Shown: positions 32,482 through 55,715 of the stretch, one piece after another
Position numbering within the stretch: the stretch's first letter is position 1
Layout of the letters: every line of letters begins with the position of its first letter
Source of the DNA: a virus
Reading direction: 5' to 3' (one strand)
Length of the DNA stretch: 64,000 nt
Virus record (IMG/VR): IMGVR_UViG_3300037851_000757
Location: 714-64,713 of that record
Program-made: the position numbers and the translations under genes
The notes under the pieces: generated by a model
What the model was told of the DNA's origin: nothing
Databases searched by the model: none
The model's input: only the letters and a program-made list of their open reading frames with translations

Positions 32482-33795
32482 TTACTTAAGAACCATTAAA
32501 GTATTCCATGTTTCATTCCCAGGTATGGGTGGACCATTCATAAAAAAAGAAGCATATTCGATTCCTGGGGTTGGGCTTATTGGTTTTTCTACTAAGTCAA
32601 AGATTTCAGTAAATTGTCTTGTCCCATGATTATAATTTCTAAATTTCCAGATACTCCCATCACTCTTTCTCCTAACATAAGCTGCTGCAAAATTTTGCTC
32701 TGCACAGCTACAATCCCATCGCCAGTCCCAACGTGATTCTAAAAGAGAAATTGGGTTATGGCCTTCATCATGAACAGCAGCTCCGACACTATTTAGTGTA
32801 ATCCATCTACCAGGAGCTTGAAAAACAATATAATCTCTTGGTGTAATAACTGATTGGTAGTGTCCTTGATCTGTGTAATAATGACTATGATCAAAAGAAT
32901 TTGCAAAAATTAAAAAATTACTTGTCCACTGATATGAATATCTTAAATAATAAAAAGGACTAACATGAAAAAGAGGCCGTATCCAAGGACGCGCATAAGG
33001 TGGAGTATTCCCAAGTACTCTCCACGGCTGTTCATCAGTTTTAGAATCTGGGCTGAATCCACAAAGTCTGGTTTCCGGCCAATCATCGACACTTTCTCCT
33101 TGATAATAAGCATTATAGAGATTATCTGTTGTCCCAGGCCAAGCAGCTAAAAACTCCATAACAGGAGAAGGGGCAACCCCTTCAGATTCACGAGGACAGT
33201 ATTCTTGAAAACGATAATGGCCATCATCCCAAGCTTCAAGCCAACGACTATAATGCCAGTAGTGATCCGGATCATAATTTGGAGAATCAGTTAGCCAATC
33301 ATACCCATAATTAGTTGGACGATCAATTCCATCAACAATAAATCCATATTCTGGATTATAAACTCCTCTATCACCAAAAGCTTCCCCTGTATACCACCAA
33401 TCTGTTATAAATTCAGCAACCACTTCCCAATCCTCATTCCAACTTACCATAGGACGATAACCTGGTTGATTTTCTGGAATCCTTTTTCCTACCCATTTAA
33501 GTCTCAAAATTCTGTGTGTTGTCGTTTGCGTATCACGATCAGTTGCTTGGCTTAGAAAAATATGCCATCCTGCGGCCAAACCATATTTAGGAGTTCGAAA
33601 TTTAGCTTGAAATGGTCTTGGTCTTAGAGGATATATTGGCTGAATCTCTAATGTTGGGATTTTCCCATAATTAACCCACTCTCTCCCTGTGTGATGCCAT
33701 AAAGTATAATATGTGGCATTTCTTTGAGAATAATCATCATTTGGGTCGAATGAAAGACAAAGACATTCGACCCGTTTTAGAAAGGGCGCACCTGA
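32482..33795 (-). CDS. Trp/Tyr-rich tail-associated frame, probably the -1 frameshift extension of 33777..36176
   Basis: The track starts it at TTG 33579 with no SD. The frame is open upstream to a TGA at 33843-33841 with no ATG/GTG/TTG before 33579. Confidence 0.6.
   Translation of the reverse strand, partial: SGAPFLKRVECLCLSFDPNDDYSQRNATYYTLWHHTGREWVNYGKIPTLEIQPIYPLRPRPFQAKFRTPKYGLAAGWHIFLSQATDRDTQTTTHRILRLKWVGKRIPENQPGYRPMVSWNEDWEVVAEFITDWWYTGEAFGDRGVYNPEYGFIVDGIDRPTNYGYDWLTDSPNYDPDHYWHYSRWLEAWDDGHYRFQEYCPRESEGVAPSPVMEFLAAWPGTTDNLYNAYYQGESVDDWPETRLCGFSPDSKTDEQPWRVLGNTPPYARPWIRPLFHVSPFYYLRYSYQWTSNFLIFANSFDHSHYYTDQGHYQSVITPRDYIVFQAPGRWITLNSVGAAVHDEGHNPISLLESRWDWRWDCSCAEQNFAAAYVRRKSDGSIWKFRNYNHGTRQFTEIFDLVEKPISPTPGIEYASFFMNGPPIPGNETWNTLMVLK
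33743..33773. other. Hairpin with a perfect 10-bp stem just past the tail-tip gene stop
   Basis: GGGTCGAATG-11 nt-CATTCGACCC. Confidence 0.7.
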
Positions 33796-36176
33796 TTTTT
33801 TTCCCCCTTCCTTCCAAGAACAAGGAAGCCGGTGTTCCCTTCAATAAGTTCAAAACTATTAGCTTGTGTTCCTAACTCAACTCCAAGATCAGAAGGTTCG
33901 GGGCCATCAACATATGCAGAAATGTCAAAAGCATTATAGGCTTTTCCTTTTGCTCCTTCAGGGATATCTGTATTTGGAAAATAAACACGGCCAGGAGGGA
34001 GATTATCTTCAGTCGGTTTTCGGATTAAAGCATGATCCCCATCATAGCCATAGTGTTCTGCTGGAGAAAAAGCTGGAATTGCATCTGTTGCTTTTACTTT
34101 TTCAAGATTTTTATCTACAGAACCAGAACCGATAGAAATTCTGCCACCTTCGATTCCTGTTACTACAAACCCACTTCTCGCCTTAGTGAGCCATTGTTTG
34201 TCTTTTTCAGTCCCAACATTATCACCGAGAGCATAGGTCGGGGAGTTAAAGTAGTTTGGATGATTTTGTGGGTTCAAATCATAATCACACCAAACCCCAT
34301 CACCAGCAGGAAATCCCCATCCGTAGTATCCAATAGTATTTTCTTTAGTAAAAAGAACTTTTCCTGAATCAAGATTATCCTCGCGCGGAATCCCAACATG
34401 GGCAACATCCATTGTTTCTTTATCTTCTAAAACAAAAACGTCTTTTTCTACCCAAAGAATTTCATAAGCATTATATGCCCCTATTGAACCATCTTCAATA
34501 TGGATACGTGTTCCACCGGCGTTTTTAAGTTTTTGATTTATAGAATCGTCAATGTCAGAGTCACAAACTAATTTTTCTTCTCTCGCTGGAACAGGAGAAG
34601 TGTACCCATCTTTAGGCTCATTTCCACCAGTCCAATAATGAGGATCTTCAATAGGTTGCCCACCAGAATGATCTCCAGCTTTTGACCCAAGTTCTATTTT
34701 TATTTCAATAAGACTTGAATCATGATTATGGTTAACTGATTCTGCAAATCCGCGAAGGCCATAAGCACTAAGAGCCGGATAAGAAACAAAGACTCCATCG
34801 TAGGCTTCAATGCCAAGTGCAGGTAAAAAAGACTGTACAGTTATTTTCCTCCAAGAGTGTGAATATCTGTACGCCCAAAAAGAAGCGCTAACCTGGACAG
34901 CCCGCAAAGTTGTAAAACAAAAGAAGTTATAATCTTGTGGAATAACCCCGTATCTATCAACTTCATTTTTAAAAACGGTTTTTTGGTTTCCTTCTTTATG
35001 CCCACTATAGTCTTGAACCCAAGTCGCATTAAAAACAGTAACAAGATCCTCCGTTTCAGTAAAACCTAATTCAGCCCCTTTCAACTTAATTTCATTTGCA
35101 GTAAGTGCTCCACCAATTATATTGTTTGTAAAAAGTGGCCGAAGAAAAGCTACATTATCTTTAGTAAAAAGAAGACACCTTGCTTGCCAAGCCATTTTTT
35201 CACTAAGAGAAAGTGCATCCTCTTGATCAGCAAGAACAAAGTGACCAGGAGTATCCCCAACTAAAGAAGCAGCAGTAGAAAAAGAAACTGGGTCAACAGT
35301 TAAATCTGTAAAAGTCTCGAGAATCCATTCAATTTGATTAGCAATATTAGAAGAAAGTCCTGTGCAGTCAACAAAAATATCATCTTGCCAATTTTCCCCC
35401 TCTATTTTTGAAAGAGCAATAGGAAAAGAGACTAAGGTTACTGTTTTTCCACCAACAGACTCATTGTTCACTGAATAATAAGCAGAGTCAACAAGAAATA
35501 AATCATCAGGATCGCCAACAACACAAGACTTTTTTGCAAAAACATTTGAAATAGAAACAGTATTATAGCCAACTAAATATTTTTCAGGTAAATCTGGTTC
35601 TTCATCAGTTGGCCCATAGATTCTGGAAATCGGAACTCGTTTTGGGCTTCCAAAAATAATTGACCAATTAGAATTATAGGCTTCTGGTAAAAGACCCTCA
35701 ACATAGTTAGGGTCTGTTTCGTATTCTGATGGTGAAAATCCAACTTCCCCTTTTCCTTGGAATGTTTCAACACTAAAAGAAAAAGTTCTTTCTTCTTCAC
35801 TCCAAGCAATTGGCCCCGCTATTTTTCCATTTAGCATTAATGTAGCATCAGAAGATGGTAAATCATAATAATGATGCCAAATTTTTGCTTTTGTTCCTTC
35901 AATAACTTCTGTATTTATTTTTGCTTTAATGGCAGAAGAAGTGTCATCAAGAGTCACAGAAACAGATGAGACTTCTCCTGTTGCTCCAATTTTTCCGCTG
36001 CTAACAAATTCTCCTATACTGATAATAGCTACTTGACAGGCTTGCCCATTAAAAGTATAATCAAGCTCAGTATAGTAGACTGTTCCACTTCCCCAATTTA
36101 TCTCAAGGACAATGATTGGAAAAGTTCCCTTAGCAGTTAAAGATTTAGCAAGAGCTGAAGAAGTTTGATTTTTCAT
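33777..36176 (-). CDS. Tail tip/hub-like protein
   Basis: Large ORF downstream of the tape measure; SSVSVTLDD, LLNG, IIFG.PKRVP and MAWQARC features typical of sipho tail-tip proteins. Confidence 0.6.
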   Translation of the reverse strand: MKNQTSSALAKSLTAKGTFPIIVLEINWGSGTVYYTELDYTFNGQACQVAIISIGEFVSSGKIGATGEVSSVSVTLDDTSSAIKAKINTEVIEGTKAKIWHHYYDLPSSDATLMLNGKIAGPIAWSEEERTFSFSVETFQGKGEVGFSPSEYETDPNYVEGLLPEAYNSNWSIIFGSPKRVPISRIYGPTDEEPDLPEKYLVGYNTVSISNVFAKKSCVVGDPDDLFLVDSAYYSVNNESVGGKTVTLVSFPIALSKIEGENWQDDIFVDCTGLSSNIANQIEWILETFTDLTVDPVSFSTAASLVGDTPGHFVLADQEDALSLSEKMAWQARCLLFTKDNVAFLRPLFTNNIIGGALTANEIKLKGAELGFTETEDLVTVFNATWVQDYSGHKEGNQKTVFKNEVDRYGVIPQDYNFFCFTTLRAVQVSASFWAYRYSHSWRKITVQSFLPALGIEAYDGVFVSYPALSAYGLRGFAESVNHNHDSSLIEIKIELGSKAGDHSGGQPIEDPHYWTGGNEPKDGYTSPVPAREEKLVCDSDIDDSINQKLKNAGGTRIHIEDGSIGAYNAYEILWVEKDVFVLEDKETMDVAHVGIPREDNLDSGKVLFTKENTIGYYGWGFPAGDGVWCDYDLNPQNHPNYFNSPTYALGDNVGTEKDKQWLTKARSGFVVTGIEGGRISIGSGSVDKNLEKVKATDAIPAFSPAEHYGYDGDHALIRKPTEDNLPPGRVYFPNTDIPEGAKGKAYNAFDISAYVDGPEPSDLGVELGTQANSFELIEGNTGFLVLGRKGEKNQVRPF

Positions 36177-37324
36177 AGTACATTCCCAAAAAGAAGTTTT
36201 TTTCTTGATGTTGCAAGACAGTCTACACAGCTTAAATGAACAGACTGCTTAACTGCTGAAACCCTTCTTAAAGACTCAGTAAAATTATTATGATAACAAA
36301 CTCCATCAATCTTAATAAATTCGCTTTCACTTTTTGCAACTCCTATAGAGCCATCCCAACTTTTAATATTTAAAAAGACTTGGATATCACTAATATGATT
36401 AGCAAATCCATAAAGACCGTCTTCTGAACCAGCAAAAATAATCCCAACAAGATAATATTGCCCCCCGCTTTTAAATAAAATTGGCGCTCCTGAATCCCCT
36501 GCACTCAAAAATCTTGTTGGGGAATAAAGCAGTATTTGATCATAAAATCTTGCTATTGATCCAGAGTAATCAACATTTGCACTTGCTTTTTTATCAATAA
36601 TTGTAGCTTCTGTATTCCCGGTCGTTCTTCCACTTTTATATACAATATTATCCACACTATATTGGAGTTTGCTGGCATGAGGAAAAGACGCAGGAGAAGC
36701 AACATCTAAAATTCCAGGAAGATGCAAATTTTGAGCATTTAGGGTACAAATAGCTGCATCAATATAATTTGATCCAAGATCCCCAAAGGAAATAGGAATT
36801 GTCCTTTTTCCGGTAGCAATAATATCATAGATTGGGTGTCCACCATCATAGACTCCAGGTTGAACACACTCAGCATAGGAAATATTACTATAGCCAACTC
36901 CAGTTTCAGGAGGAAAAACTGTATTATAAATAACACCAAGAACATGATTACAAGTTAAAAGAACAATTTGCTCATCTTCTTCGTCAACAACAAAGAGGCT
37001 TAAAGTACCAGCATTAACTAAATGGCTGGCCCCAATACTGATACCACCCTGCAAAGGACGATGCTTGATACCGTGAGGGTAACAAGAACCTTCAGTATTA
37101 TTTGGGCAAGAAGTTAATGCTTTTACCTTAGAAAAAACAATAACGTCTGTTAATTGTCCTTCTTCTGTTTGTTTTGGAATCCGATCTTCCTCAGAAAGAT
37201 TTTGCAAATCTTCCTTTTTAGAAACGCCAACAACAAGACAAGGTTTTCCAGTATCTTTACCTTTTACTTTTTTTGTTCCTTTAAAAGTAATTATAACATT
37301 CTTTTTTTGAAGAAGTGTTTTCAT
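36173..37324 (-). CDS. Trypsin-like serine protease (Nal1-like, with prodomain)
   Basis: RPLQGGISIG, LTCNHV (His), IDAAI (Asp), KSGRTTG, AGDSGA (Ser). Confidence 0.88.
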   Translation of the reverse strand: MKTLLQKKNVIITFKGTKKVKGKDTGKPCLVVGVSKKEDLQNLSEEDRIPKQTEEGQLTDVIVFSKVKALTSCPNNTEGSCYPHGIKHRPLQGGISIGASHLVNAGTLSLFVVDEEDEQIVLLTCNHVLGVIYNTVFPPETGVGYSNISYAECVQPGVYDGGHPIYDIIATGKRTIPISFGDLGSNYIDAAICTLNAQNLHLPGILDVASPASFPHASKLQYSVDNIVYKSGRTTGNTEATIIDKKASANVDYSGSIARFYDQILLYSPTRFLSAGDSGAPILFKSGGQYYLVGIIFAGSEDGLYGFANHISDIQVFLNIKSWDGSIGVAKSESEFIKIDGVCYHNNFTESLRRVSAVKQSVHLSCVDCLATSRKKLLFGNVL

Positions 37325-42586: not shown

Positions 42587-43129
42587 TTAAAAATTTTCTC
42601 CATATAAATATCCGCCTTCTTCCATTTCAAAATGAGCTGCTTCTGCTTCTGATAAAAGCTGATAAAAATAATCATTTTCAAGAGTTGGATAATAGTTACT
42701 CTGTCCTGGTACTGGTGTTATAGTATTATAATCAAGACTTCCATAGCATCCACCAACTTGATATGAAATAAGAGTAGCAAGATACTCAAATTCTATATCA
42801 TACCAGCAAAGATCTCTGATCTCGAGAATCTCAATTACAGGATTTATAATAAAGCCGGTAAGAGCAACCCCATAGCTTTCTGAAAGGGTCACAGAAAGAC
42901 CAATAGACGCTCTATATAGTGCTTCAAAATCATTTACTTGGGCTTCCTTTAATCCTGTAAAAGAATATTGTCTTTTCTCTATAACCGGCCAAAGAGGATC
43001 TTTAAAAATCTTAGGGAGTCCACCTTTTAGATTTCGGACAACTGCTCCTGACTCAAATCGAAGAATATCCCCTAAATCTGCACTTACAAGAGAAACACTG
43101 TAAGTACTATATGTTAGGCTAATTGGCAA
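42587..43129 (-). CDS. Distal tail-like protein
   Basis: Directly follows the tape measure; GGAGG precedes TTG 43129 (track start 43213). Confidence 0.55.
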   Translation of the reverse strand: MPISLTYSTYSVSLVSADLGDILRFESGAVVRNLKGGLPKIFKDPLWPVIEKRQYSFTGLKEAQVNDFEALYRASIGLSVTLSESYGVALTGFIINPVIEILEIRDLCWYDIEFEYLATLISYQVGGCYGSLDYNTITPVPGQSNYYPTLENDYFYQLLSEAEAAHFEMEEGGYLYGENF

Positions 43130-46100
43130 AGGAAAGCCTCCCAAGTCTAATTTGTTTTTTGATGCTTTTGCCAAGTCTAAGGACATTAACTTCTGGAGAA
43201 GATGAAACTCCATTAAAGTTCATGTCCCCAAAATTATAAGTTGTACTGCCAGAGTTAAATCGCCTGACTCCAGAGTTCATTGCAACAAGCTGACTATAGA
43301 ATTTTCTTGAAGCTGCTGGATTCATGACCATTTCATCAGGAGATAACCAAGCCAACTGGGTGTCAATTCCTGCACTTCTACCACTGGCATACCGAGGATT
43401 TCCTTTTGAATCCATAGTAATAGAGGGAGAGGTAATCAGATTTGATAAGATTCCTCTAACTTCACCAATAGCAGTTCTGGCACTTTCAACATATCTCAAC
43501 CAAATTTGTCGGTTTCCTTCAATTTCTTCAATTTGCCGATTCCGGACATCAATCAAAACCTGTTGCTGAGCAGCTAAAGAAGCATCTTTAAGACGAAGGT
43601 TAACAAGACTCTCTATCTGGAGTTTTTCAAAAGCTATTTGAGCGTCTTTATAAAATTGTGTTCCATATTTTTTGCTATACTCCTCCATTTTCTTAAAAGC
43701 TGTACTTTGAGCCTCTGTGACTTTTTGGAGTTCTTCTGGAGAAGTAATTTTAGTTAAATCTGTCCAAGAAGCTTTTGTTACAATATTTGACAAATCTTTA
43801 ATGATAGAAAGTTCATCTTCTAAATATTGCTGCCTCTGCTTTTCAGTAGTAAGACGAGAAGCTGCCACTCCCTGCATCATTCGATCATATCTGGCAATTT
43901 CTTCAAGATAGTATCTATAATACCCTTCACCACTTTTAATTGGCGACCATTTTTTTGCGTCAATTAATTGATCTGAGAAATCAATTTGTTCTTTAACAAG
44001 CTTTTTTAATTCAGCAGAGATTGCTTCAAAGCGTTCTTTATTAGTCGCTTTTGCAGCTTTTGCAAGTTCTTCTTCAAGAAGCCCAACCTGTGCAGCAGTT
44101 GCTTGATATTTTGAAAATAGATCTGGTTCCTTTCGATCATAGCGATCTTTACCAGAGAGACGGCGCTCCATAATATAATTGGTAGCTTCCATCTCTTTAT
44201 TAAAATCTTTTTGTTTCTTTTTTGCAATATCTTCAAGGCGATTAATTTCTTCTCGAACAGTAGATAAACGATCTCGAATAGAATCAATAATCTTTTCTTC
44301 AAATCTTGTTACGGACCCAAGAAAATCTTCATAAGGCTCTTTTTGAAGATTGATCATTTGGGTAAGAAGCCCACGCTCTTCTGCCAAAGATTGCAATTGT
44401 TTTTTTGAAGCATCTTCAACAGCCTTCACGCGGGCGTCATACGCCGTGTTTATATTGAGAAGCTCTCTATCAAGCCACTTTTTTTGGTTATCTGCTGTTG
44501 CTCTATCAATTTTATCAGCTTTTTCTTGCCCAAGTCTAATAATAAATCGAGAAATAAAAACACCTGTCCCAAGGGCAGCAAGTCCTGCTAAAATTGGATT
44601 TAATCCAGCAAGAGCAAAAGTTAAAGCTCCAACAGCAGGGACAGCTGTATAAAAAATAGTATCAGAAAAAGCTTTAACACCAGCAGTAATATTATCAAAA
44701 TTTGCACCAAGACCTGCAACAGTATCAATCATTCTTTTACCGACATCAACGGTAAAGAAATTCTTGATTCGCTCCATCACTACTGCAAGTTGTTTTTCAG
44801 GTTTTTCTGTGATTAGTTTTATTTGATCATTATATGTTTTAACAGCTTCGGTAATGTCTACATAATCTTGCTCAACTTCCTTAAGACTTTTACCAGTAAT
44901 GGACATGACACCTTGCATGGCTCGGAGTCTGCCCATTAATTTTCCTATTTCAGCTGTATCTTCTCCAAATCTATCAGAAAGCAGCGTTAAAAAAGGTAAA
45001 AATCCATATGTCTCAATGGCTGCTTGGCCAGTTTCAACACCAAGTTCTTTAAACCATTTTGACATTTCCTCTGTTGGTTTGATTAATTTAAGAAAAACGT
45101 TCCGAAGATACGTGGCAGTCGTATTATATTTGATACCTTGTCGAGAAGCAACTGTGATAAGAGACTGGAGTTCGTTTAATTTAACTCCTACTTGTGCAGC
45201 AGGAACAGCTAATTGACCAAAAGTCTGAGCCATTTCAGATGCTTTGACTCGACCAAGGTCAATAGTTGCAAAGAAAGAAGCCGCAATCTCATTTGCTCTT
45301 GATGTATCTAATTTAAAAGCGTTAATTGTGGCATCAAGAAGTTGGACAGCTTCAGTAGTAGTTGAGACAGAAGTTACTGCAAACTGATTTACTTCTTGTA
45401 GATACCGAAAAGTATCTGCACCTTCAACAATCTGATCTGAAATTGCTTCATAGCCTGCTGCAACTTGATCAAGAAGTGGACCTCCCCAAGTATCAGAAAG
45501 TTTCCTAAAACCATCTACCCATTGATTAACACCTAAAGGAAATTTTGAAGATATAGTCTGGACTTCACCTATTCTGATTCCAAGTTCTATAACAGTCCCC
45601 ATTCCTTCCCGAATGGTTCTTATTATAGAAGAAACAGCTTGGTGAATTAATTGAACGCCAATAAGTCTGGTAAAACTTTTCCAAGAAAGAGTAACTTCAT
45701 CAAGCGCGCCTTTTAATTTTTTTGTTGACTGTGTGGCTTGCCCCTGTTGAACAGCAACTTTGAAAAAAGCTGCTGCTTGTGCATCAATCTGTTTTGTAAA
45801 AGAAGCTCCAAGTTGTGCTTGAGTATTCTTAACTCTTAGCATGGCAGTTTGGATATCGCTCAAACCACCAACATAAGAACGAATACGATTTTTCCCAATA
45901 TCGTCCCACATCTTAGAGATTTGGGAATAAGCAATATCATGCTGTGCACGAAGTTCTCGAACAGAAGTAATAGCATTTTTGTAGCTAAGAATTTCTTCTG
46001 GGGTTGCCTGTCTTTTAGCAATTTCAGTTCGAGAAATACCTTTTTGAAGAAGTAATGATGTTGCAGAATCAGCCTTTCTTGAAAGTTGCTGTCTCCTTTT

Positions 46101-46787
46101 AAGGGCTGCTTCTTCTTGTGCCGCTGCTTTTGCTTCTTCAAGAGCACGAAGACGTTGTTTTTCCGCAACCTCAGCTTCTGCTTTTGCTTTTGCTAATTGT
46201 TTTCGTGATTCTGCACCAAGCCTCTCTTTTGCAATTAAAACATCTTCAAGGGCATTACGAACTTTTCGCAGAGCACCTGCGTAGGCTTGAGTTTCTCCTC
46301 GTCCAAGTTCTCCCCAAATTTTAGTAATATGTTCTCTTGCAACATTGTGCTGTGCAACGATTTCCCGTAAACGCCCAGCAGCGTTTTTATAGTCAACTTG
46401 CTCTCCACGAGTTGCGCCAAGTTGCCCAATGCCTGCTTGGGTTGTCCCTCGCTGGACAAGATCACCAGCATATCGAGCATTTGTTGAAGCGAGGTCAACT
46501 ATAGCCCTTCTTTGACGCTGAATAGAAGAAGTTGTAGAGTCAGTCTGAGAGGAAAGACGTTGTTGAGCAGAAATTATAGAATCAAAATTTTTAACAACTG
46601 TCCCAAGTGATTTTGCTAAATCAGAAACAGTTTTAGCTGTCTCTGCAAATTTTGTCAGAGTTTTATCAGCACTCTTATTTGTTTTTTCTTGAGCTTTTGC
46701 AACAGTTTCCCACTGTTTTACGAGCTTCTCAAGTTCTTTGAAGACTGCACTAAAATCAGCGGAGGCTTGAGCAGTATCGGTTGCCAT
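43119..46787 (-). CDS. Tape measure protein
   Basis: 1222 aa, Ala-rich helical, with a TP901-like core (AAGYEAISD...ATIDLGRV..SEMAQTFG), downstream of the tail chaperones. Confidence 0.92.
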   Translation of the reverse strand: MATDTAQASADFSAVFKELEKLVKQWETVAKAQEKTNKSADKTLTKFAETAKTVSDLAKSLGTVVKNFDSIISAQQRLSSQTDSTTSSIQRQRRAIVDLASTNARYAGDLVQRGTTQAGIGQLGATRGEQVDYKNAAGRLREIVAQHNVAREHITKIWGELGRGETQAYAGALRKVRNALEDVLIAKERLGAESRKQLAKAKAEAEVAEKQRLRALEEAKAAAQEEAALKRRQQLSRKADSATSLLLQKGISRTEIAKRQATPEEILSYKNAITSVRELRAQHDIAYSQISKMWDDIGKNRIRSYVGGLSDIQTAMLRVKNTQAQLGASFTKQIDAQAAAFFKVAVQQGQATQSTKKLKGALDEVTLSWKSFTRLIGVQLIHQAVSSIIRTIREGMGTVIELGIRIGEVQTISSKFPLGVNQWVDGFRKLSDTWGGPLLDQVAAGYEAISDQIVEGADTFRYLQEVNQFAVTSVSTTTEAVQLLDATINAFKLDTSRANEIAASFFATIDLGRVKASEMAQTFGQLAVPAAQVGVKLNELQSLITVASRQGIKYNTTATYLRNVFLKLIKPTEEMSKWFKELGVETGQAAIETYGFLPFLTLLSDRFGEDTAEIGKLMGRLRAMQGVMSITGKSLKEVEQDYVDITEAVKTYNDQIKLITEKPEKQLAVVMERIKNFFTVDVGKRMIDTVAGLGANFDNITAGVKAFSDTIFYTAVPAVGALTFALAGLNPILAGLAALGTGVFISRFIIRLGQEKADKIDRATADNQKKWLDRELLNINTAYDARVKAVEDASKKQLQSLAEERGLLTQMINLQKEPYEDFLGSVTRFEEKIIDSIRDRLSTVREEINRLEDIAKKKQKDFNKEMEATNYIMERRLSGKDRYDRKEPDLFSKYQATAAQVGLLEEELAKAAKATNKERFEAISAELKKLVKEQIDFSDQLIDAKKWSPIKSGEGYYRYYLEEIARYDRMMQGVAASRLTTEKQRQQYLEDELSIIKDLSNIVTKASWTDLTKITSPEELQKVTEAQSTAFKKMEEYSKKYGTQFYKDAQIAFEKLQIESLVNLRLKDASLAAQQQVLIDVRNRQIEEIEGNRQIWLRYVESARTAIGEVRGILSNLITSPSITMDSKGNPRYASGRSAGIDTQLAWLSPDEMVMNPAASRKFYSQLVAMNSGVRRFNSGSTTYNFGDMNFNGVSSSPEVNVLRLGKSIKKQIRLGRLSFAN

Positions 46788-47323
46788 TAGTAATTTACCT
46801 TTGATCTAAATTTAAAGGGAAAATGACTTGCGTCTGGCAGATACTTTTCATAGTTATTCTCAATAAAGATTTCAGCATCTATCATAGCTTCATTTAAGCT
46901 CTGCCACTGTGGCTCCCAATACCAATATTGCCAAACTTTTATTTGAAACCGAAAAGACATTGTTGGGCGGTCTATTGACCCATAATTAAATTTAAAAGCA
47001 TTTAGCCCTGCTTTAACGCCTTCCGGGATTCCTTTTATTTTTTTCGGATAATATCTTCCACTTATAGCAGTTACTCCACGCCTAACTCTTTTAGGGGCAA
47101 CATAAGGAAGAATACTTGTTTTTGCTACTTTAGCCATTGGCTCAAGAGATGCTGCCGACATTCCCGTATCTACCGCTACATTAGTTACAGCAGATTTTAC
47201 AAAGACGCCCGCAGCATCTCGCATGAGCCGCTTCATCGCTTCATAGTACTTCCTTTTCCATTCAGCAAAAGCACTTTTGATTGCTGAAATCTCGACTCTA
47301 CCGTATGTCAGTTTCAGTACCAC
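46787..47323 (-). CDS. Neck/tail-completion-like virion protein
   Basis: VAVDTGMSAASL resembles HK97 gp10-like PVDTG..R.S. Confidence 0.5.
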   Translation of the reverse strand: MVLKLTYGRVEISAIKSAFAEWKRKYYEAMKRLMRDAAGVFVKSAVTNVAVDTGMSAASLEPMAKVAKTSILPYVAPKRVRRGVTAISGRYYPKKIKGIPEGVKAGLNAFKFNYGSIDRPTMSFRFQIKVWQYWYWEPQWQSLNEAMIDAEIFIENNYEKYLPDASHFPFKFRSKVNY

Positions 47324-47953
47324 TTTCCTCTATCATCCTTAGATGATTATAACCAATTAAAGATGCTTGAGTCCAGATATCGCAATCATCCCACACTGAT
47401 TTTACTCCAGAAGGTTGAATCCCAAATCTTTCACAAGCTCTCCAAATTGCATACCGCTCGCTACGAAATTTAGGGATTATGCTTTGTCTTTCTCCTCCTG
47501 GAGACCAGCTAAAAAACTATCTGTTGCAGCCTTTACCTTTTCATCATCCAATCCTTGGACTTCAATATAGGCTCGCATCAGACGAAGGCGTTCTGCATCT
47601 GTTAGCCCAGACGAAACAAGTTCACTTTCAACATTCCCCCAGGTTTCAGGATTTGCAAGATCAATAGTTTCCCATTCAAGTCCAGGGGTTGAACTTAAGG
47701 CTTTTATTAACATCCAATTAGACTTGTGCTCTCCCCATTTTTGAAGACTTTTTCTATAATCAGGATCTTCAATCAAGTGGATTTTCTGTCCATCTGCCGT
47801 CTTTTTTACAGGTGGAATTGGAGCAGGATAAATTTTGTCAAATTCATTTGACTCTAAAACGGCCTGGATAACAAATACTAAGTTTCCAGTGTCACGCGGC
47901 AATACGATAGTTTTTTTTGGCGCTCCGGCCACTTTTATACCGTGCAATTTCAT
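47298..47953 (-). CDS. Tail assembly chaperone GT (-1 frameshift product)
   Basis: Slippery T TTT TTA at 47516-47510. The -1 frame reads SWSPGGERQSIIPKFRSERYAIWRACERFG...DIR to TAG at 47298. Confidence 0.8.
47477..47953 (-). CDS. Tail assembly chaperone G
   Basis: Lies between the major tail and tape measure genes and carries the slippery site near its end. Confidence 0.8.
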   Translation of the reverse strand: MKLHGIKVAGAPKKTIVLPRDTGNLVFVIQAVLESNEFDKIYPAPIPPVKKTADGQKIHLIEDPDYRKSLQKWGEHKSNWMLIKALSSTPGLEWETIDLANPETWGNVESELVSSGLTDAERLRLMRAYIEVQGLDDEKVKAATDSFLAGLQEEKDKA

Positions 47954-52379: not shown

Positions 52380-54054
52380 TTGATGCTCCTCTGCGGTCTT
52401 TATTGAGCTTATCTATTTCATCGTCATTTAGATTTTGCAAATCTCTTACGCCTCTATTAGAAACAGCAGATTGTGCCTTTGCGATTCTTGCTGCTCGATC
52501 TGCATGATCTTTTTTGGCTTTTTCTGCTTCTCCTTTTGGGTAGCCCAGAGCTTCTGAAGCAGTTGCATCCGAAACAAGACCTTCTTTGTGATCTTCTCTT
52601 ATTATTTCATGATCCATTGTGGTAACTTGAGCAGTCAATATTTCTTCATAAATTACTTCCATCGTTTCTTGTCTAACTTTAGTTTCAAGAGCAGTAATGG
52701 CAATCTGTCTATCAATTTCTTTTTGAAAAGTAATAGAAGGAACAACTGTTTTTAATTCTTTTAACTTTTTAATTTCATCAAGACGCTCTGCATCTGATCG
52801 AAGACTATATTTTTTTGGGTATTTAATAACAGCCGCACTTTTTCCAGATTCATACATTGTCCAGATTTCTGCAATCTCTCGTTCAACTCTTTCCAACTCC
52901 ATACCAATATAACTTAGCCCTGCTTCCAAACCTTTTTCATCTGTTAAATCTGCACTCTGAGAACCAGCAGGCCGTTCTAAATTCTTTAAAGAAAGGTTAA
53001 CCAATTTTCGAATATCTTCTTTTAACTGATCACTTTTTTTCATGCTTGCTAAAAGCGGCTCTGGAGATGGATTTATAAAATCAGGTCGCTCTAACCCTTT
53101 TGCATATTTTCGACCATGTGTGACACCTATTTTAATATCAGATCTGCCTTGTGCATCAGCAGTCTCTCTTGCTGGAACCCCTTCTTCTGTGTCACTAAGT
53201 TGTAATTTTGCAAAATTTTCCATTTGAGGATTAAATTGCTCAGTATAAAATGGAAAATTACTTTTTAGTGAGTATCCAATATCAGAACTTTCTAAATTAA
53301 GTAGAGCAATTTGATAATCAGAGACATCAGTTAAAAGGCTCTGACTTAGAGTTGCAATTACTAAAGGAATTCGAGGGAGATCTATTTTAAGGGCTTCTCC
53401 TTCTTGCTCTCCTTTTGAATTATAAATAGTTAAAGAGACACCATTTTCTTCAAGAATAATGTGCCTATATTTTATTTCTCTTCCTTTTACAAGATGTGTA
53501 ACAGGGTCAACAACATCTATATAATCTTTTAAAAGGACTGCTACTAAGATGTTGTCTACATAAGTCCAAGATTGGATATCTTCTGCTGGATAGTAATAAA
53601 GATAAGGAGAAAATTGTTTTGACTGTAATTTGGTTGTTCCAATATCTGATGCTTTGTCAACAAAGATTCCAACTTTTGCCATTGGAAGCAGTTCTGGTAA
53701 AACTTGAGTTCCGATAAAAGTTGTCATAGTCATACCAGCTCTGTCAACACCACCAGTGTCTCCATAAACAGCTTTTTGATAAGAAGAAGAACCACCGATT
53801 CGCTGAATCTCAACGAGTCGTTGATATATTGAATTTTTAATATCAATAATAGCTGCTTTTGCATGAGCTGGACAATAAGAAATATCTCGTCTTGTTACAA
53901 AATCTGTTGCTTCTTCTCTATGAGAAAATTTTTTCAAATATTTATTAACAAAATCCTTGCCACCTACAAAAGTTGCCCGATATTTTTCCCAATTTGAAAC
54001 ACTTGAAAGATAATCAGGGTGAAAAGTTTCCGTAATTTTTGATTTCCGAGCCAT
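52366..54054 (-). CDS. Portal protein
   Basis: HPDY...W.KYR..F.GG...YL N-terminus; directly downstream of TerL. Confidence 0.85.
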   Translation of the reverse strand: MARKSKITETFHPDYLSSVSNWEKYRATFVGGKDFVNKYLKKFSHREEATDFVTRRDISYCPAHAKAAIIDIKNSIYQRLVEIQRIGGSSSYQKAVYGDTGGVDRAGMTMTTFIGTQVLPELLPMAKVGIFVDKASDIGTTKLQSKQFSPYLYYYPAEDIQSWTYVDNILVAVLLKDYIDVVDPVTHLVKGREIKYRHIILEENGVSLTIYNSKGEQEGEALKIDLPRIPLVIATLSQSLLTDVSDYQIALLNLESSDIGYSLKSNFPFYTEQFNPQMENFAKLQLSDTEEGVPARETADAQGRSDIKIGVTHGRKYAKGLERPDFINPSPEPLLASMKKSDQLKEDIRKLVNLSLKNLERPAGSQSADLTDEKGLEAGLSYIGMELERVEREIAEIWTMYESGKSAAVIKYPKKYSLRSDAERLDEIKKLKELKTVVPSITFQKEIDRQIAITALETKVRQETMEVIYEEILTAQVTTMDHEIIREDHKEGLVSDATASEALGYPKGEAEKAKKDHADRAARIAKAQSAVSNRGVRDLQNLNDDEIDKLNKDRRGASNDDD

Positions 54055-55715
54055 TATAAGATTCTCCCAATATTATAATTTACTGCTAAATTTGCCGCCA
54101 ATGGCAAAGCAATTTCAGCATAATTACCACTATGAGCAAAATGGTCAGAATCGTGCTCACTCTTAACATAGCGACCAACAGGATTTCCATCTTGATCTTT
54201 TTCATAGACACGGACAAGTGATTTAATATGATCTTTATATTCTGTGCTTAAATCAATTGGGAGAATAATTTTATTTTTACGGTATCTTGAAAATCTTAAA
54301 TCAAGCCAAGAAGTTCTATCCACAGTAATTGTATATTCTTCCTCACTGTGGATATGAATTTGTTTTGTATTGCCAACTTTATTCCCATAATAGCAGAGTT
54401 TTACTCTCCCAAAATGTCTTTGAGCAAACTCTAAGGCTTTTCTTTTTTCCGGGTGTGCATCAATCACACAAAAAGCAATCCCAAATCTTCTCATTAAGTC
54501 ATCAAGATTTTCAAAATCTAAAGTCTTCCCTTCATTTATTAATTTACAAGTAGCAGCTAAGCTAATATCTGTTTCTAAATCTTTACCTCCAAAAAACCAT
54601 TGATCGATTTCAAAATGTAACCATTTTCCAACATCTACTCCCATTGTTAAAAGAGCATCTTTTGGAACAATTCCTATTTTTTGATGATTTCCAAGACAAG
54701 CCAATATGTCAGTATCAGTAATCCGTGCTCCTTCAACAATATGAGTCAATCCAAGCTTTGAATTATAAAATTCCTGTTCATCTGCTGGATTACTTTTAGA
54801 TTTAAGATAGAGACTTGCAATTTCATAAGGCTTTACAGTCATGGAATATAACTGGCTAATATGATACCCATAAATGTCTCTATCATCATATGTTGGAATC
54901 CATTTGGCATTTGGTGGCGCTAAAAAATTAATCTTATCTTCATGTTCTAATATCTTTTTACATTCTTTACAAATTAGATGGCTTTCTCGAATTTTTTGAT
55001 CTGTTACCTCCTCTGCTGTTATGATTAAACAATCTGGAAAAATTAAATGGGTATATTTTGAACAATGTGGACAACGAAAATAATAAAGATGTTGTGTACT
55101 GATTTTGAAATCTGCATTTATTCCGTAATTATCTATGGTTGGAGTTGAAATTTGAAAAAATTGTTTTTCAATTTGTCCAGAAGCCCGTTCAAAGATCATT
55201 GGGACATTCTCTTGGACCATTTCATCTTTTTCATCAATAATTGCCAAGCCAACAGGAATTGATTTAAGTTGACTCCGACTTCTTGAACCGCGAATATATA
55301 AATTTGCACTTCCAGCCCTTTTATGTCCGATGTTTTTAACATCTGTAAAAAGACTTTTTAAATGTGGACTCATCTCTAACGCAGAGTCAAATCGAGCTGT
55401 TGAAAAGTCACTGGCGTCTGGTGTCGTTGCTGGTAGCACATATAGAACACTTGTTCGATCAACATCTATGGCTTTAAAAGATCTATTTAAAGCGACTTCC
55501 GTATATCCCATTTGGGCAGCTTTCTGCCCAATAATATTTTCAGCAACACAATCATGCAAATCAATTAACCAAGGATGATACTTAAATGTCCAAGGACCAG
55601 GAAAAGGTTTCCCCATTATCCTATAAGTCGAAGCATATCTTGAGACAGTTGTTACTGCTTTTCTCTGAAGGCCAGAAACAACTCTTTCATATAAAAGTTT
55701 TTGGAGAGAGTGCAT
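54054..55715 (-). CDS. terL: Terminase large subunit (lambda GpA-like)
   Basis: QKAAQMGYTE Walker A, IIDEKD Walker B, ISTPT, CPHC..CKEC, GVDVG, DHFAH. Confidence 0.92.
   Translation of the reverse strand: MHSLQKLLYERVVSGLQRKAVTTVSRYASTYRIMGKPFPGPWTFKYHPWLIDLHDCVAENIIGQKAAQMGYTEVALNRSFKAIDVDRTSVLYVLPATTPDASDFSTARFDSALEMSPHLKSLFTDVKNIGHKRAGSANLYIRGSRSRSQLKSIPVGLAIIDEKDEMVQENVPMIFERASGQIEKQFFQISTPTIDNYGINADFKISTQHLYYFRCPHCSKYTHLIFPDCLIITAEEVTDQKIRESHLICKECKKILEHEDKINFLAPPNAKWIPTYDDRDIYGYHISQLYSMTVKPYEIASLYLKSKSNPADEQEFYNSKLGLTHIVEGARITDTDILACLGNHQKIGIVPKDALLTMGVDVGKWLHFEIDQWFFGGKDLETDISLAATCKLINEGKTLDFENLDDLMRRFGIAFCVIDAHPEKRKALEFAQRHFGRVKLCYYGNKVGNTKQIHIHSEEEYTITVDRTSWLDLRFSRYRKNKIILPIDLSTEYKDHIKSLVRVYEKDQDGNPVGRYVKSEHDSDHFAHSGNYAEIALPLAANLAVNYNIGRIL

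What the first reader, a model, noticed from the sequence alone, without database searches (positions are those of the whole stretch)
32482..33843. Probable second programmed -1 frameshift extending the tail-tip protein by about 437 aa
Seen: the 799-aa gene ends ...AAG GGG GAA AAA AAT CAG GTG CGC CCT TTC TAA, containing the slippery heptamer A AAA AAT (33801-33795) within a G5A7 run. The -1 frame is open from there (KSGAPFLKRVECLCLSFDPNDDYSQRNATYYTLWHH...) into the 365-aa ORF, which has no start codon before a TTG lacking an SD. A 10-bp hairpin lies 21 nt downstream, farther than the usual 5-9 nt. Inference: short (799 aa) and long (about 1230 aa) tail-tip forms, or slippage-based host-range switching. 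A homopolymer assembly error is the main alternative.
Basis: partly seen in the sequence, partly recalled or inferred. Interest (0 to 1): 0.7.

Follow-up and report, generated by a model that had tools for sequence, protein, structure and literature searches.

The report
Frameshift-extended phage tail-tip hub protein

Summary
The 799-aa gene (33777-36176, minus strand) ends GGG GAA AAA AAT CAG GTG CGC CCT TTC TAA. The -1 frame is open from 33840 to 32482. It has no ATG, GTG or TTG before 33579, and a 10-bp hairpin sits at 33773-33743.

A programmed -1 frameshift is well supported, but the slip site is not the A7 run. Every related locus whose contig spans the junction keeps C CCU UUY on the last two codons, then the stop, 3 nt and a stable hairpin. 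The A-rich heptamer is absent from most relatives. Two distant relatives carry a different stem sequence at the same place, with three compensatory pair changes.

Between the stop and the annotated start, nearly all substitutions are synonymous in the -1 frame. The annotated start codon itself drifts between TTG, CTG and CTT, all Leu. Only 4 of 109 comparable codon columns are frozen, and two of them are the heptamer's CGC CCT.

By fold, the 799-aa protein is a T5 pb3 / lambda J-like tail-tip hub and the extension is a beta-propeller. An assembly error is excluded.

No protein evidence exists. Earlier unchecked notes from this scan describe similar frameshifts on J proteins of other phages. 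I found no paper reporting this.

The parts
33777..36176 (-). Tail-tip / baseplate hub gene (short form, 799 aa, P0001), T5 pb3 / lambda gpJ-like
   Evidence: ORF. AlphaFold model (N-terminal ~500 aa confident). Foldseek PDB top hits are T5 tail-tip pb3 (7zhj_b, E 3e-16), the DT57C baseplate and the lambda, Chi and T1 tail tips. BFVD hits are 'Tip attachment protein J'. The gene lies downstream of the tape measure gene 43119-46787.
33780..33786 (-). Conserved slippery heptamer C CCT TTC (zero frame CG-C CCT TTC); proposed -1 slip site
   Evidence: CCCTTTY is invariant in all 15 distinct loci whose contig spans the junction. The CGC and CCT codons are 2 of only 4 frozen codons among 109 comparable columns. 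The H_HH.U_UU.Y class is among the most efficient heptamers in E. coli (PMC4066793).
33777..33779 (-). Zero-frame stop codon TAA, directly abutting the heptamer
   Evidence: In every relative a TGA or TAA occupies the same position.
33774..33779 (-). 6-nt spacer (TAAAAC) between heptamer and stem
   Evidence: The spacer is 6 nt in the 13 class-I loci and 5-6 nt in L020.
33743..33773 (-). Stimulatory hairpin: 5' arm 33773-33764, 11-nt loop 33763-33753, 3' arm 33752-33743
   Evidence: RNAfold. All cells pair in 12 distinct sequences. A different stem sequence occupies the same place in L020 and L022, with compensatory changes at pairs 4, 6 and 7. No T-tract, no terminator call and no Rfam match.
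32482..33779 (-). -1-frame extension: 432 codons after the slip (LKRVECLCLSFDP... to ...NTLMVLK) plus the stop; predicted beta-propeller
   Evidence: Open frame. Homologues are and the alignments are A1 and A3. The model has pLDDT 76 and pTM 0.81 and is all-beta. Beta-propeller matches reach Z up to 10.3. Between the stop and the annotated start, 7 of 9 variable codons are synonymous in this frame.
33754..33756 (-). CTT (Leu) codon at the position where gene callers place a TTG start in relatives
   Evidence: The codon is TTG, CTG or CTT across relatives, always Leu. It lies in the hairpin loop with no Shine-Dalgarno sequence upstream. The predicted beta-strand at model residues 7-13 spans it.
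33795..33801 (-).
   Evidence: Present in the window, L020 and L021 but absent from the L002-L014 clade. The hairpin lies 21 nt away. The related A_AA.A_AA.C heptamer is rated low efficiency in E. coli.
33803..33815 (-). Purine-rich Shine-Dalgarno-like tract (GGAAGGAAGGGGG) upstream of the slip site; possible dnaX-style upstream stimulator (inferred only)
   Evidence: Relatives carry GGGAG, AAGGA or AAGGAGG 10-16 nt upstream of the heptamer. The tract also encodes the conserved GRKGG motif, so its conservation may be purely protein-coding.

Best explanation
The tail-tip hub gene ends in a canonical -1 programmed ribosomal frameshift cassette.

When the ribosome holds CCU (Pro798) in the P site and UUC (Phe799) in the A site, the 10-bp hairpin starting 6 nt downstream sits at the mRNA entrance and resists unwinding. 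A fraction of ribosomes slip both tRNAs back one base onto CCC and UUU. They then read CUA AAA CGG GUC and onward in the -1 frame, missing the UAA stop.

Two products result. Ribosomes that do not slip terminate and give the 799-aa hub. Ribosomes that slip give a 1231-aa hub with junction ...NQVRPF-LKRVECLCLSFDP.... Its extra 432 residues fold as a beta-propeller.

The hub is a pb3 / gpJ-type protein that closes the tail tube as a trimer. The extension would therefore sit at the distal tip, most plausibly as the host-surface (glycan) binding head, and the frameshift efficiency would set how many heads each tip carries.

Shown here:
- the cassette anatomy;
- its strict conservation;
- coding constraint in the -1 frame across the stop;
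- absence of a conserved start codon;
- the two folds.

Inferred:
- that slippage actually occurs, and how often;
- that the propeller binds a receptor;
- that the stoichiometry matters.
For: 1. Conservation of the cassette. CCCTTTY + stop + 3 nt + hairpin is present in all 13 close loci and in L023. L020 has the heptamer with a different hairpin. L021 has the heptamer only. L022 has the hairpin, but its contig starts just after the heptamer position.

2. Frozen codons. Among 109 columns with an invariant amino acid of at least four-fold degeneracy, in 7 hub genes, only 4 keep a single codon. Two of those are the terminal CGC CCT that make up the heptamer.

3. Hairpin. All cells pair. Pair 8 is A-U, G-U or G-C. 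Class II stems (L020, L022) change pairs 4, 6 and 7 on both sides while keeping the position. Fold z-scores range from -3.4 to -5.1.

4. Coding constraint in the -1 frame between the zero-frame stop and the annotated start. Seven of 9 variable codons are purely synonymous, including Leu CTT/CTC/TTA, Leu CTG/TTG/CTT and Arg AGG/CGG. The figure is 0 of 9 in the +1 frame.

5. No start codon. The window has no ATG, GTG, TTG, CTG or ATH anywhere in the open -1 frame before 33579. The genome otherwise uses ATG, mostly with a Shine-Dalgarno sequence. Gene callers place the start of identical DNA at two different sites.

6. Heptamer competence. C_CC.U_UU.C shows 'high level frameshifting' and H_HH.U_UU.Y is among the most efficient classes in E. 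coli (PMC4066793). West Nile virus uses C_CCU_UUU.

7. Structure. The predicted first beta-strand of the propeller (model residues 7-13, ECLCLSF) spans the supposed start codon.

8. Architecture in distant relatives. Distant hub homologues of 1362-1380 aa carry an in-frame C-terminal Kelch beta-propeller. A hub with a terminal propeller is therefore a natural architecture.

9. Not an assembly artefact. Two Logan assemblies show no indel.
Against: - There is no protein, RNA or reporter evidence, so efficiency is unknown.
- The library of 1.84 billion cluster representatives holds no single-ORF fused form of hub plus this propeller. The two parts are never seen as one uninterrupted gene.
- Most relatives have a CTG or TTG overlapping the stop (CUGA / UUGA) and a TTG or CTG in the loop. 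Weak independent initiation or reinitiation cannot be excluded for them. L020 has an in-frame ATG 14 nt after the stop, preceded by a G-rich tract.
- Covariation within the main hairpin class is weak: 8 of 10 pairs never vary, and the shuffle control is not significant.
- The stem also encodes the conserved residues V-E-C and S-F-D-P, so part of its conservation is protein-level.
- L021 shows no convincing hairpin.
Confidence: 0.8

Rival explanations
1. There are two separate genes. The propeller protein is initiated independently, or by termination-reinitiation coupling, at a weak non-ATG codon near the stop: TTG or CTG in the hairpin loop, or CTG / TTG overlapping the stop. The hairpin serves to tune or couple that initiation.
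For: Public gene calls treat it as a standalone 393-427-aa protein starting 20 nt after the stop. Most relatives have CUGA or UUGA at the stop and TTG or CTG in the loop. L020 has an ATG with a G-rich tract upstream. No fused ORF is known.
Against: The window has CTA at the stop overlap and CTT in the loop, so it has no possible start before 33579. That would delete about 60 well-conserved residues. The 'start' codon drifts synonymously among Leu codons, and the codons upstream of it are under -1-frame coding constraint. No Shine-Dalgarno sequence is present in a genome that uses them. This reading does not explain why CGC CCT is frozen.
Confidence: 0.1
2. The frameshift happens at the A AAA AAT / G5A7 run (33801-33795), either by ribosomal slippage or by transcriptional slippage on the A7 run.
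For: It is an in-frame X_XXY_YYZ heptamer and the -1 frame is open there in the window, L020 and L021. A-runs can cause polymerase slippage (general knowledge; PMC4066793 notes this for AAAAAAA).
Against: It is absent from the 12-locus L002-L014 clade. In L002 and L004 a -1-frame stop lies between its position and the real heptamer. The hairpin is 21 nt away, outside the usual spacing. The window's A7 run results from a single GGA-to-GAA difference from L020 and L021. The closely related A_AA.A_AA.C heptamer is rated low efficiency in E. coli.
Confidence: 0.05
3. It is an artefact or decay: a homopolymer assembly error, or a genuine frameshift mutation, has split what is really one 1231-aa gene.
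For: The window is a metagenome-assembled contig, and an A7/G5 run lies next to the junction.
Against: The same two-frame layout, with a stop at the same codon, is found in more than 15 loci from many samples and assemblers. Most of these have no homopolymer there. Two Logan assemblies (depth 131 and 8) agree base for base. No relative has the uninterrupted form.
Confidence: 0.02

Closest known systems
Lactobacillus phage A2 major head protein gp5A/gp5B, and T3/T7 capsid 10A/10B (-1 frameshift at the 3' end of a structural gene)
   Same: A -1 slip near the last codons of a virion structural gene, helped by a downstream stem-loop, yields a full-length short form plus a C-terminally extended form that are both built into the virion. 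This is from my own knowledge of Garcia et al. 2004, cited in PMC10885494, and from the Atkins review PMC5009743.
   Different: Those are capsid proteins with short extensions, often Ig-like. Here the gene is the tail-tip hub and the extension is a 432-aa beta-propeller. The heptamer differs: C CCA AAA in A2 (from memory) against C CCU UUC here.
Lambda gpG/gpGT and other tail assembly chaperone frameshifts (Xu, Hendrix & Duda 2004)
   Same: A conserved -1 programmed frameshift inside the tail operon of tailed phages. It is recognised by a conserved heptamer, an open -1 frame and no start codon for the downstream ORF.
   Different: The chaperone products are not virion components and lie upstream of the tape measure gene. 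This cassette lies about 9 kb downstream, on the hub gene, and adds a presumptive receptor-binding domain.
E. coli dnaX tau/gamma -1 frameshift signal
   Same: A bacterial heptamer plus a downstream hairpin about 6 nt away, possibly with an upstream Shine-Dalgarno-like purine tract 10-16 nt before the site.
   Different: dnaX uses A AAA AAG, and there the frameshift shortens the product. Here the heptamer is C CCU UUC, it abuts the stop, and the frameshift lengthens the product. The upstream Shine-Dalgarno-like role is not shown here.
West Nile virus NS1' frameshift site (C_CCU_UUU plus downstream structure)
   Same: The same heptamer class. L013, L020 and L021 use exactly CCCUUUU.
   Different: That is a eukaryotic ribosome with a pseudoknot stimulator and an unrelated protein.
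Lambda gpJ / T5 pb3 tail-tip (baseplate hub) proteins
   Same: The predicted fold and the gene position of the 799-aa protein match. In lambda the C-terminal domain of J is the receptor-binding domain.
   Different: gpJ carries its receptor-binding domain in frame, and no frameshift is described for gpJ or pb3. Neither Pfam nor PHROG recognises this protein.
Earlier notes of this scan on other phages (e1-3540589, e1-5327907): dnaX-type -1 frameshift at the stop of host-specificity protein J
   Same: The same idea: a slip site at the stop codon of the J-type tail-tip gene, fusing it to a downstream receptor-binding-like ORF.
   Different: These are different genomes with a different heptamer (dnaX-like). 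They are unchecked AI notes that I did not test, so they are not independent evidence.

Membership tests
Canonical -1 programmed ribosomal frameshift cassette | An X_XXY_YYZ heptamer in the zero frame | tested here: met
   C CCT TTC at 33786-33780 with zero-frame codons CCT TTC. CCCTTTY is present in 15 of 15 loci that span the junction.
Canonical -1 programmed ribosomal frameshift cassette | A long ORF open in the -1 frame from the slip site, lacking its own initiation signals | tested here: met
   There are 434 open codons from the heptamer. The window has no near-cognate start before 33579 and no Shine-Dalgarno sequence.
Canonical -1 programmed ribosomal frameshift cassette | A stable downstream RNA structure 5-9 nt after the heptamer | tested here: met
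   A 10-bp stem starts 6 nt after the heptamer. It is present in 15 of 16 loci and missing in L021.
Canonical -1 programmed ribosomal frameshift cassette | Conservation of the signal beyond what coding requires | tested here: met
   Only 4 of 109 comparable columns keep one codon, and 2 of those form the heptamer. Class I and class II stems differ by compensatory changes at 3 pairs. Within class I, covariation is weak.
Canonical -1 programmed ribosomal frameshift cassette | Two protein products with a junction peptide, at measurable efficiency | not testable with these tools
   The phage is uncultured. No RNA run is listed as holding the region and there are no proteomics data.
dnaX-type tripartite signal | A Shine-Dalgarno-like element about 10-14 nt upstream that stimulates the -1 slip | tested here: inconclusive
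   Purine-rich GGGAG, AAGGA or AAGGAGG lies 10-16 nt upstream in all loci. The same bases encode the conserved GRKGG motif.
Tail-tip / baseplate hub protein (lambda gpJ, T5 pb3 type) | Hub fold (gp27 / gpJ N-terminal domains) | tested here: met
   Foldseek E 3e-16 to T5 pb3 (7zhj_b) with probability 1.0. Lambda, Chi and T1 tips and the Mu gp44 hub also match. BFVD gives 'Tip attachment protein J'. TM-scores are modest (about 0.34), and the C-terminal 250 aa are poorly modelled.
Tail-tip / baseplate hub protein (lambda gpJ, T5 pb3 type) | Sequence-family membership (Pfam / PHROG) | tested here: not met
   No Pfam or PHROG hit at the thresholds used. Membership therefore rests on fold and gene order only.
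Tail-tip / baseplate hub protein (lambda gpJ, T5 pb3 type) | Position in the tail module downstream of the tape measure gene | tested here: met
   The tape measure gene is at 43119-46787 and the hub gene is the tenth ORF after it on the same strand. The same order holds in relatives.
Beta-propeller (Kelch / lectin-like) domain | A multi-bladed all-beta propeller fold | tested here: met
   The model has pLDDT 76 and pTM 0.81. VIA-align gives Z 10.3-8 to the UmbA4 propeller, Kelch domains, the methylamine dehydrogenase heavy chain and TolB. Foldseek hits are all propellers.
Beta-propeller (Kelch / lectin-like) domain | Kelch sequence motifs / homology to the Kelch domain of distant hub homologues | tested here: not met
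   No Pfam hit. hhalign against P0031 gives probability 0.1%. It is therefore a propeller by fold, not a Kelch family member.

The most novel reading that the evidence does not exclude
Programmed frameshifting at the stop codon of the tail-tip hub is a general, overlooked way for siphophages to set the copy number of a receptor-binding head on a threefold tip. For example, it could give one propeller per trimer and so solve the 3-to-1 symmetry mismatch that T5 solves with separate proteins. The cassette would then act as a portable joint at which different heads can be swapped. This would link this family to the J-protein frameshifts noted elsewhere in this scan.
Probability: 0.2. Interest if true: 0.8.

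Novelty: new variant of a known kind. Interest (0 to 1): 0.62.

Why it matters
Frameshift-made long and short forms are textbook for phage tail chaperones, capsids and tail tubes. I found no published case for the tail-tip hub / J protein, the component that decides which host a siphophage recognises.

- **Annotation.** If this is true, public annotation of this phage group is wrong. A 'hypothetical protein' with an arbitrary TTG start is really the C-terminal domain of the hub.
- **Host recognition.** The phage would control the dose of its host-binding head by translation rather than by a separate gene.
- **Experimental use.** It offers a compact, fully conserved bacterial frameshift cassette (heptamer abutting the stop, 6-nt spacer, 10-bp stem) that can be tested directly in a reporter.
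- **Gene finding.** A missing start codon together with a frozen terminal codon pair can flag such events in metagenomes.

Tried and rejected
- **Phage genome search.** Megablast of the locus against 50,697 phage genomes gave no match.
- **Viral-contig search.** Peptide-pattern search of viral contigs with the single protein found nothing. With the alignment it found one locus.
- **Family searches.** Pfam and PHROGs gave nothing for the hub or the extension.
- **Fused form.** A profile search of 1.84 billion representatives found only 10 clusters, none longer than 427 aa.
- **Homology to Kelch propellers.** hhalign of the extension against the Kelch-bearing distant hub homologue showed no homology.
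- **Covariation.** The covariation test within the main hairpin class was not significant against shuffles, because 8 of 10 pairs never vary. MAFFT put the class II hairpins out of register, so I compared those stems by folding them.
- **L021.** I found no hairpin there.
- **Expression.** No RNA holder is listed for the region.
- **Read pileup.** The only runs served are Logan contigs, so a true read pileup over the homopolymer was not possible. The contigs agree with the window.
- **Terminator or known RNA.** The terminator scan and Rfam were both negative, so I rejected a terminator or known-RNA reading of the hairpin.
- **DNA not served.** Five look-ups returned gene tables but no DNA (and one more), so those junctions were judged only from the gene spacing: 20 nt in three of them and a 4-nt overlap in one.
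- **Pseudoknot.** I considered but did not pursue a pseudoknot between the loop and downstream sequence. The window's loop UCUUUG could pair with CAAAGA at about 33729, but I did not test whether this is conserved.
- **Complex prediction.** I did not use complex prediction.

Full report
**Context**

The window is almost the whole of a 64,750-bp IMG/VR viral contig with direct terminal repeats, from a freshwater metagenome. The minus strand carries a siphophage-type late operon. It runs terminase large subunit (54054-55715), portal, major head protein, tape measure protein (43119-46787), and then ten tail-tip genes ending with the two ORFs in question.

**Check of the observation**

One search confirms the gene end on the minus strand: AAG GGG GAA AAA AAT CAG GTG CGC CCT TTC TAA.
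- The stop is at 33779-33777.
- The A7 run is at 33802-33796.
- A 10-bp perfect hairpin, GGGTCGAATG (33773-33764) / CATTCGACCC (33752-33743), has an 11-nt loop.

The -1 frame is open from 33840 to 32482, 452 codons. Its first canonical start is a TTG at 33579 with no Shine-Dalgarno sequence. Nearly all other genes in the window start with ATG and most carry a GGAG-type Shine-Dalgarno sequence. The hairpin is in the predicted minimum-energy fold of the region (91 nt, -26.6 kcal/mol, z = -3.35).

**What the relatives show**

The downstream frame has 19 database homologues, all called as standalone proteins of 276-427 aa. The full-length ones align to the window's frame well upstream of its TTG, starting at LSFDP. 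In every contig with context, an ~800-aa gene precedes the homologue, and the called start lies exactly 20 nt after its stop.

I recovered DNA for 13 distinct junctions of this type. I also recovered three more distant ones: L020, L021 and L022.

The A-rich heptamer is not conserved. The L002-L014 clade reads GGA AGG AAC or GGG AGA AAC there. In L002 and L004 the -1 frame is closed by a stop only 7 codons upstream of the gene end.

The invariant element is C CCT TTY on the last two sense codons, followed by the stop, 3 nt, and the hairpin. C CCU UUC is itself a perfect X_XXY_YYZ heptamer. With it the spacer to the stem is 6 nt, the textbook distance.

**Is the conservation more than coding?**

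Four tests bear on this.

- *Frozen codons.* In an alignment of seven hub genes, 109 columns hold an invariant amino acid with at least four synonymous codons. Only 4 keep a single codon, and two of them are the adjacent terminal CGC (Arg) and CCT (Pro) that build the heptamer.

- *Substitutions across the stop.* Between the zero-frame stop and the position where gene callers put the start, 7 of 9 variable codons are purely synonymous in the -1 frame. These include three six-fold codons that change at first and third positions (Leu CTT/CTC/TTA, Leu CTG/TTG/CTT, Arg AGG/CGG). In the +1 frame the figure is 0 of 9. So ribosomes read this stretch in the -1 frame upstream of the supposed start. The 'start' codon behaves as an ordinary Leu codon. 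In the window it is CTT, and no near-cognate initiator exists anywhere in the open -1 frame before 33579.

- *The hairpin.* It pairs in 100% of cells across 12 distinct sequences, and pair 8 is A-U, G-U or G-C. Within this class the covariation statistics are weak, because 8 of 10 pairs never vary. L020 and L022 carry a different stem at the same place (GGGGCUU...AAGCCCC, -24.5 kcal/mol, z = -3.6). Relative to class I it changes both sides of pairs 4, 6 and 7. That is the compensatory evidence class I lacks.

- *L021, the exception.* It keeps the heptamer (CCCUUUU) and an open -1 frame with no start for 29 codons. I found no convincing stem there.

**Competence of the heptamer**

Sharma et al. 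2014 (PMC4066793) measured all heptamers in E. coli. They place H_HH.U_UU.Y among the most efficient classes and single out C_CC.U_UU.C for 'high level frameshifting'. A_AA.A_AA.C is described as of low efficiency. West Nile virus uses C_CCU_UUU for its very efficient NS1' frameshift.

A purine-rich Shine-Dalgarno-like tract lies 10-16 nt upstream in all loci, which recalls dnaX. It also encodes the conserved GRKGG motif, so I count it only as a possibility.

**What the proteins are**

Neither protein hits Pfam or PHROGs.

The AlphaFold model of the 799-aa protein is confident over about 500 N-terminal residues. It matches the T5 tail-tip protein pb3 (7zhj_b, E 3e-16), the DT57C baseplate, the lambda, Chi and T1 tail tips and Mu-type hubs. 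It also matches 'Tip attachment protein J' models in BFVD. All close homologues end ...GRK(G/D)xRNQ(Y/F)RPF.

The extension was modelled from the slip site (pLDDT 76, pTM 0.81). It is an all-beta protein whose matches are uniformly beta-propellers: the UmbA4 lectin propeller at Z 10.3, Kelch domains, TolB and lactonases. Its first predicted strand, ECLCLSF, straddles the annotated start codon.

Distant hub homologues of 1362-1380 aa carry an in-frame C-terminal Kelch propeller. That domain is not sequence-related to this one. A hub with a terminal propeller is thus a natural architecture, reached here by recoding rather than fusion.

**Mechanism proposed**

With CCU and UUC in the P and A sites and the stem at the mRNA entrance, a fraction of ribosomes slip to CCC and UUU. 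They continue CUA AAA CGG and onward, giving a 1231-aa product (799 + 432 residues, junction ...NQVRPF-LKRVECLCLSFDP...). The remaining ribosomes terminate at UAA and give the 799-aa hub.

Hubs of this type are trimers at the tube end (T5, lambda structures). The efficiency would therefore fix how many propellers each tip carries. That the propeller is the receptor- or glycan-binding head is inferred from its position and fold only.

**Rivals**

- *Independent initiation or termination-reinitiation* cannot be fully excluded for relatives that have CUGA / UUGA at the stop, TTG or CTG in the loop, or an ATG as in L020. It fails for the window, and it does not explain the frozen CGC CCT or the coding constraint upstream of the 'start' (about 0.1).
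- *The A-run site* may add a minor contribution in this phage, but it is not the conserved signal (about 0.05).
- *Assembly error or pseudogene* is rejected. The layout recurs in more than 15 loci, and two Logan assemblies (depth 131 and 8) agree with the window without any indel (about 0.02).
- *A terminator or a known RNA family* is not supported.

**Novelty**

The mechanism is canonical. Its use is not. The comprehensive recoding review (PMC5009743) lists phage frameshifts in capsid, major tail and chaperone genes. It contains no mention of tail tip, baseplate or tail fibre in the 300,000 characters held. My literature searches found no case on a J / pb3-type hub.

Earlier unchecked AI notes of this scan report dnaX-type frameshifts at the stop of J proteins in two other phages. 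So the scan has seen the same idea before on other DNA. I did not test those cases.

I rate this a new variant of a known kind. My confidence in the frameshift is 0.8, and I set interest at about 0.6. It still lacks any protein-level evidence.

Noticed in passing
window 47300-47530 (minus strand): The 158-aa ORF upstream of the tape measure gene (47477-47953) contains AGTTTTTTAG near its end. By eye, the -1 frame from this T6 run stays open for about 70 codons, past the stop. The 46787-47329 ORF is in yet another frame.
   Followed up: no
window 36173-37324 (minus strand): The gene immediately upstream of the hub overlaps its start by ATGA. It hits PHROG 20754 'protease' (E 8e-40). Its homologues in relatives carry weak Nal1_C hits, and the gene is syntenic in every relative. 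A serine protease is thus conserved next to the tail-tip hub.
   Followed up: partly
L023 / L024 6382-6619: Identical DNA in two samples was given different starts for the propeller gene by the same pipeline: 6403 (393 aa) against 6619 (321 aa). The window's own database entry (P0003) uses the TTG at 33579 (365 aa). Public calls for this family are inconsistent and all appear N-terminally truncated.
   Followed up: partly
P0031 / P0032 (1380 and 1362 aa): Distant homologues of the N-terminal ~330 aa of the hub carry an in-frame C-terminal Kelch beta-propeller (Pfam Kelch hits at residues 1113-1370). Others (P0033-P0035, 994-1338 aa) have long C-termini with no Pfam hit. The hub N-terminus is a conserved platform with swappable distal domains.
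   Followed up: partly
L021 3880-4001: The most distant relative with DNA keeps both heptamers (A AAA AAC and C CCU UUU) and an open -1 frame. It has no detectable downstream hairpin in an AT-rich stretch. It may use another stimulator or slip less.
   Followed up: partly
L023-L025 1-2446: In the L005 / L023 lineage, a gene of at least 820 aa upstream of the protease carries weak or faint WD40-type beta-propeller Pfam hits. These phages may therefore carry more than one propeller protein in the tail-tip module.
   Followed up: no
window 33720-33763 (minus strand): The hairpin loop UCUUUG is complementary to CAAAGA about 25 nt downstream of the stem. This raises the possibility of an H-type pseudoknot in the window. 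I did not check conservation in relatives.
   Followed up: no
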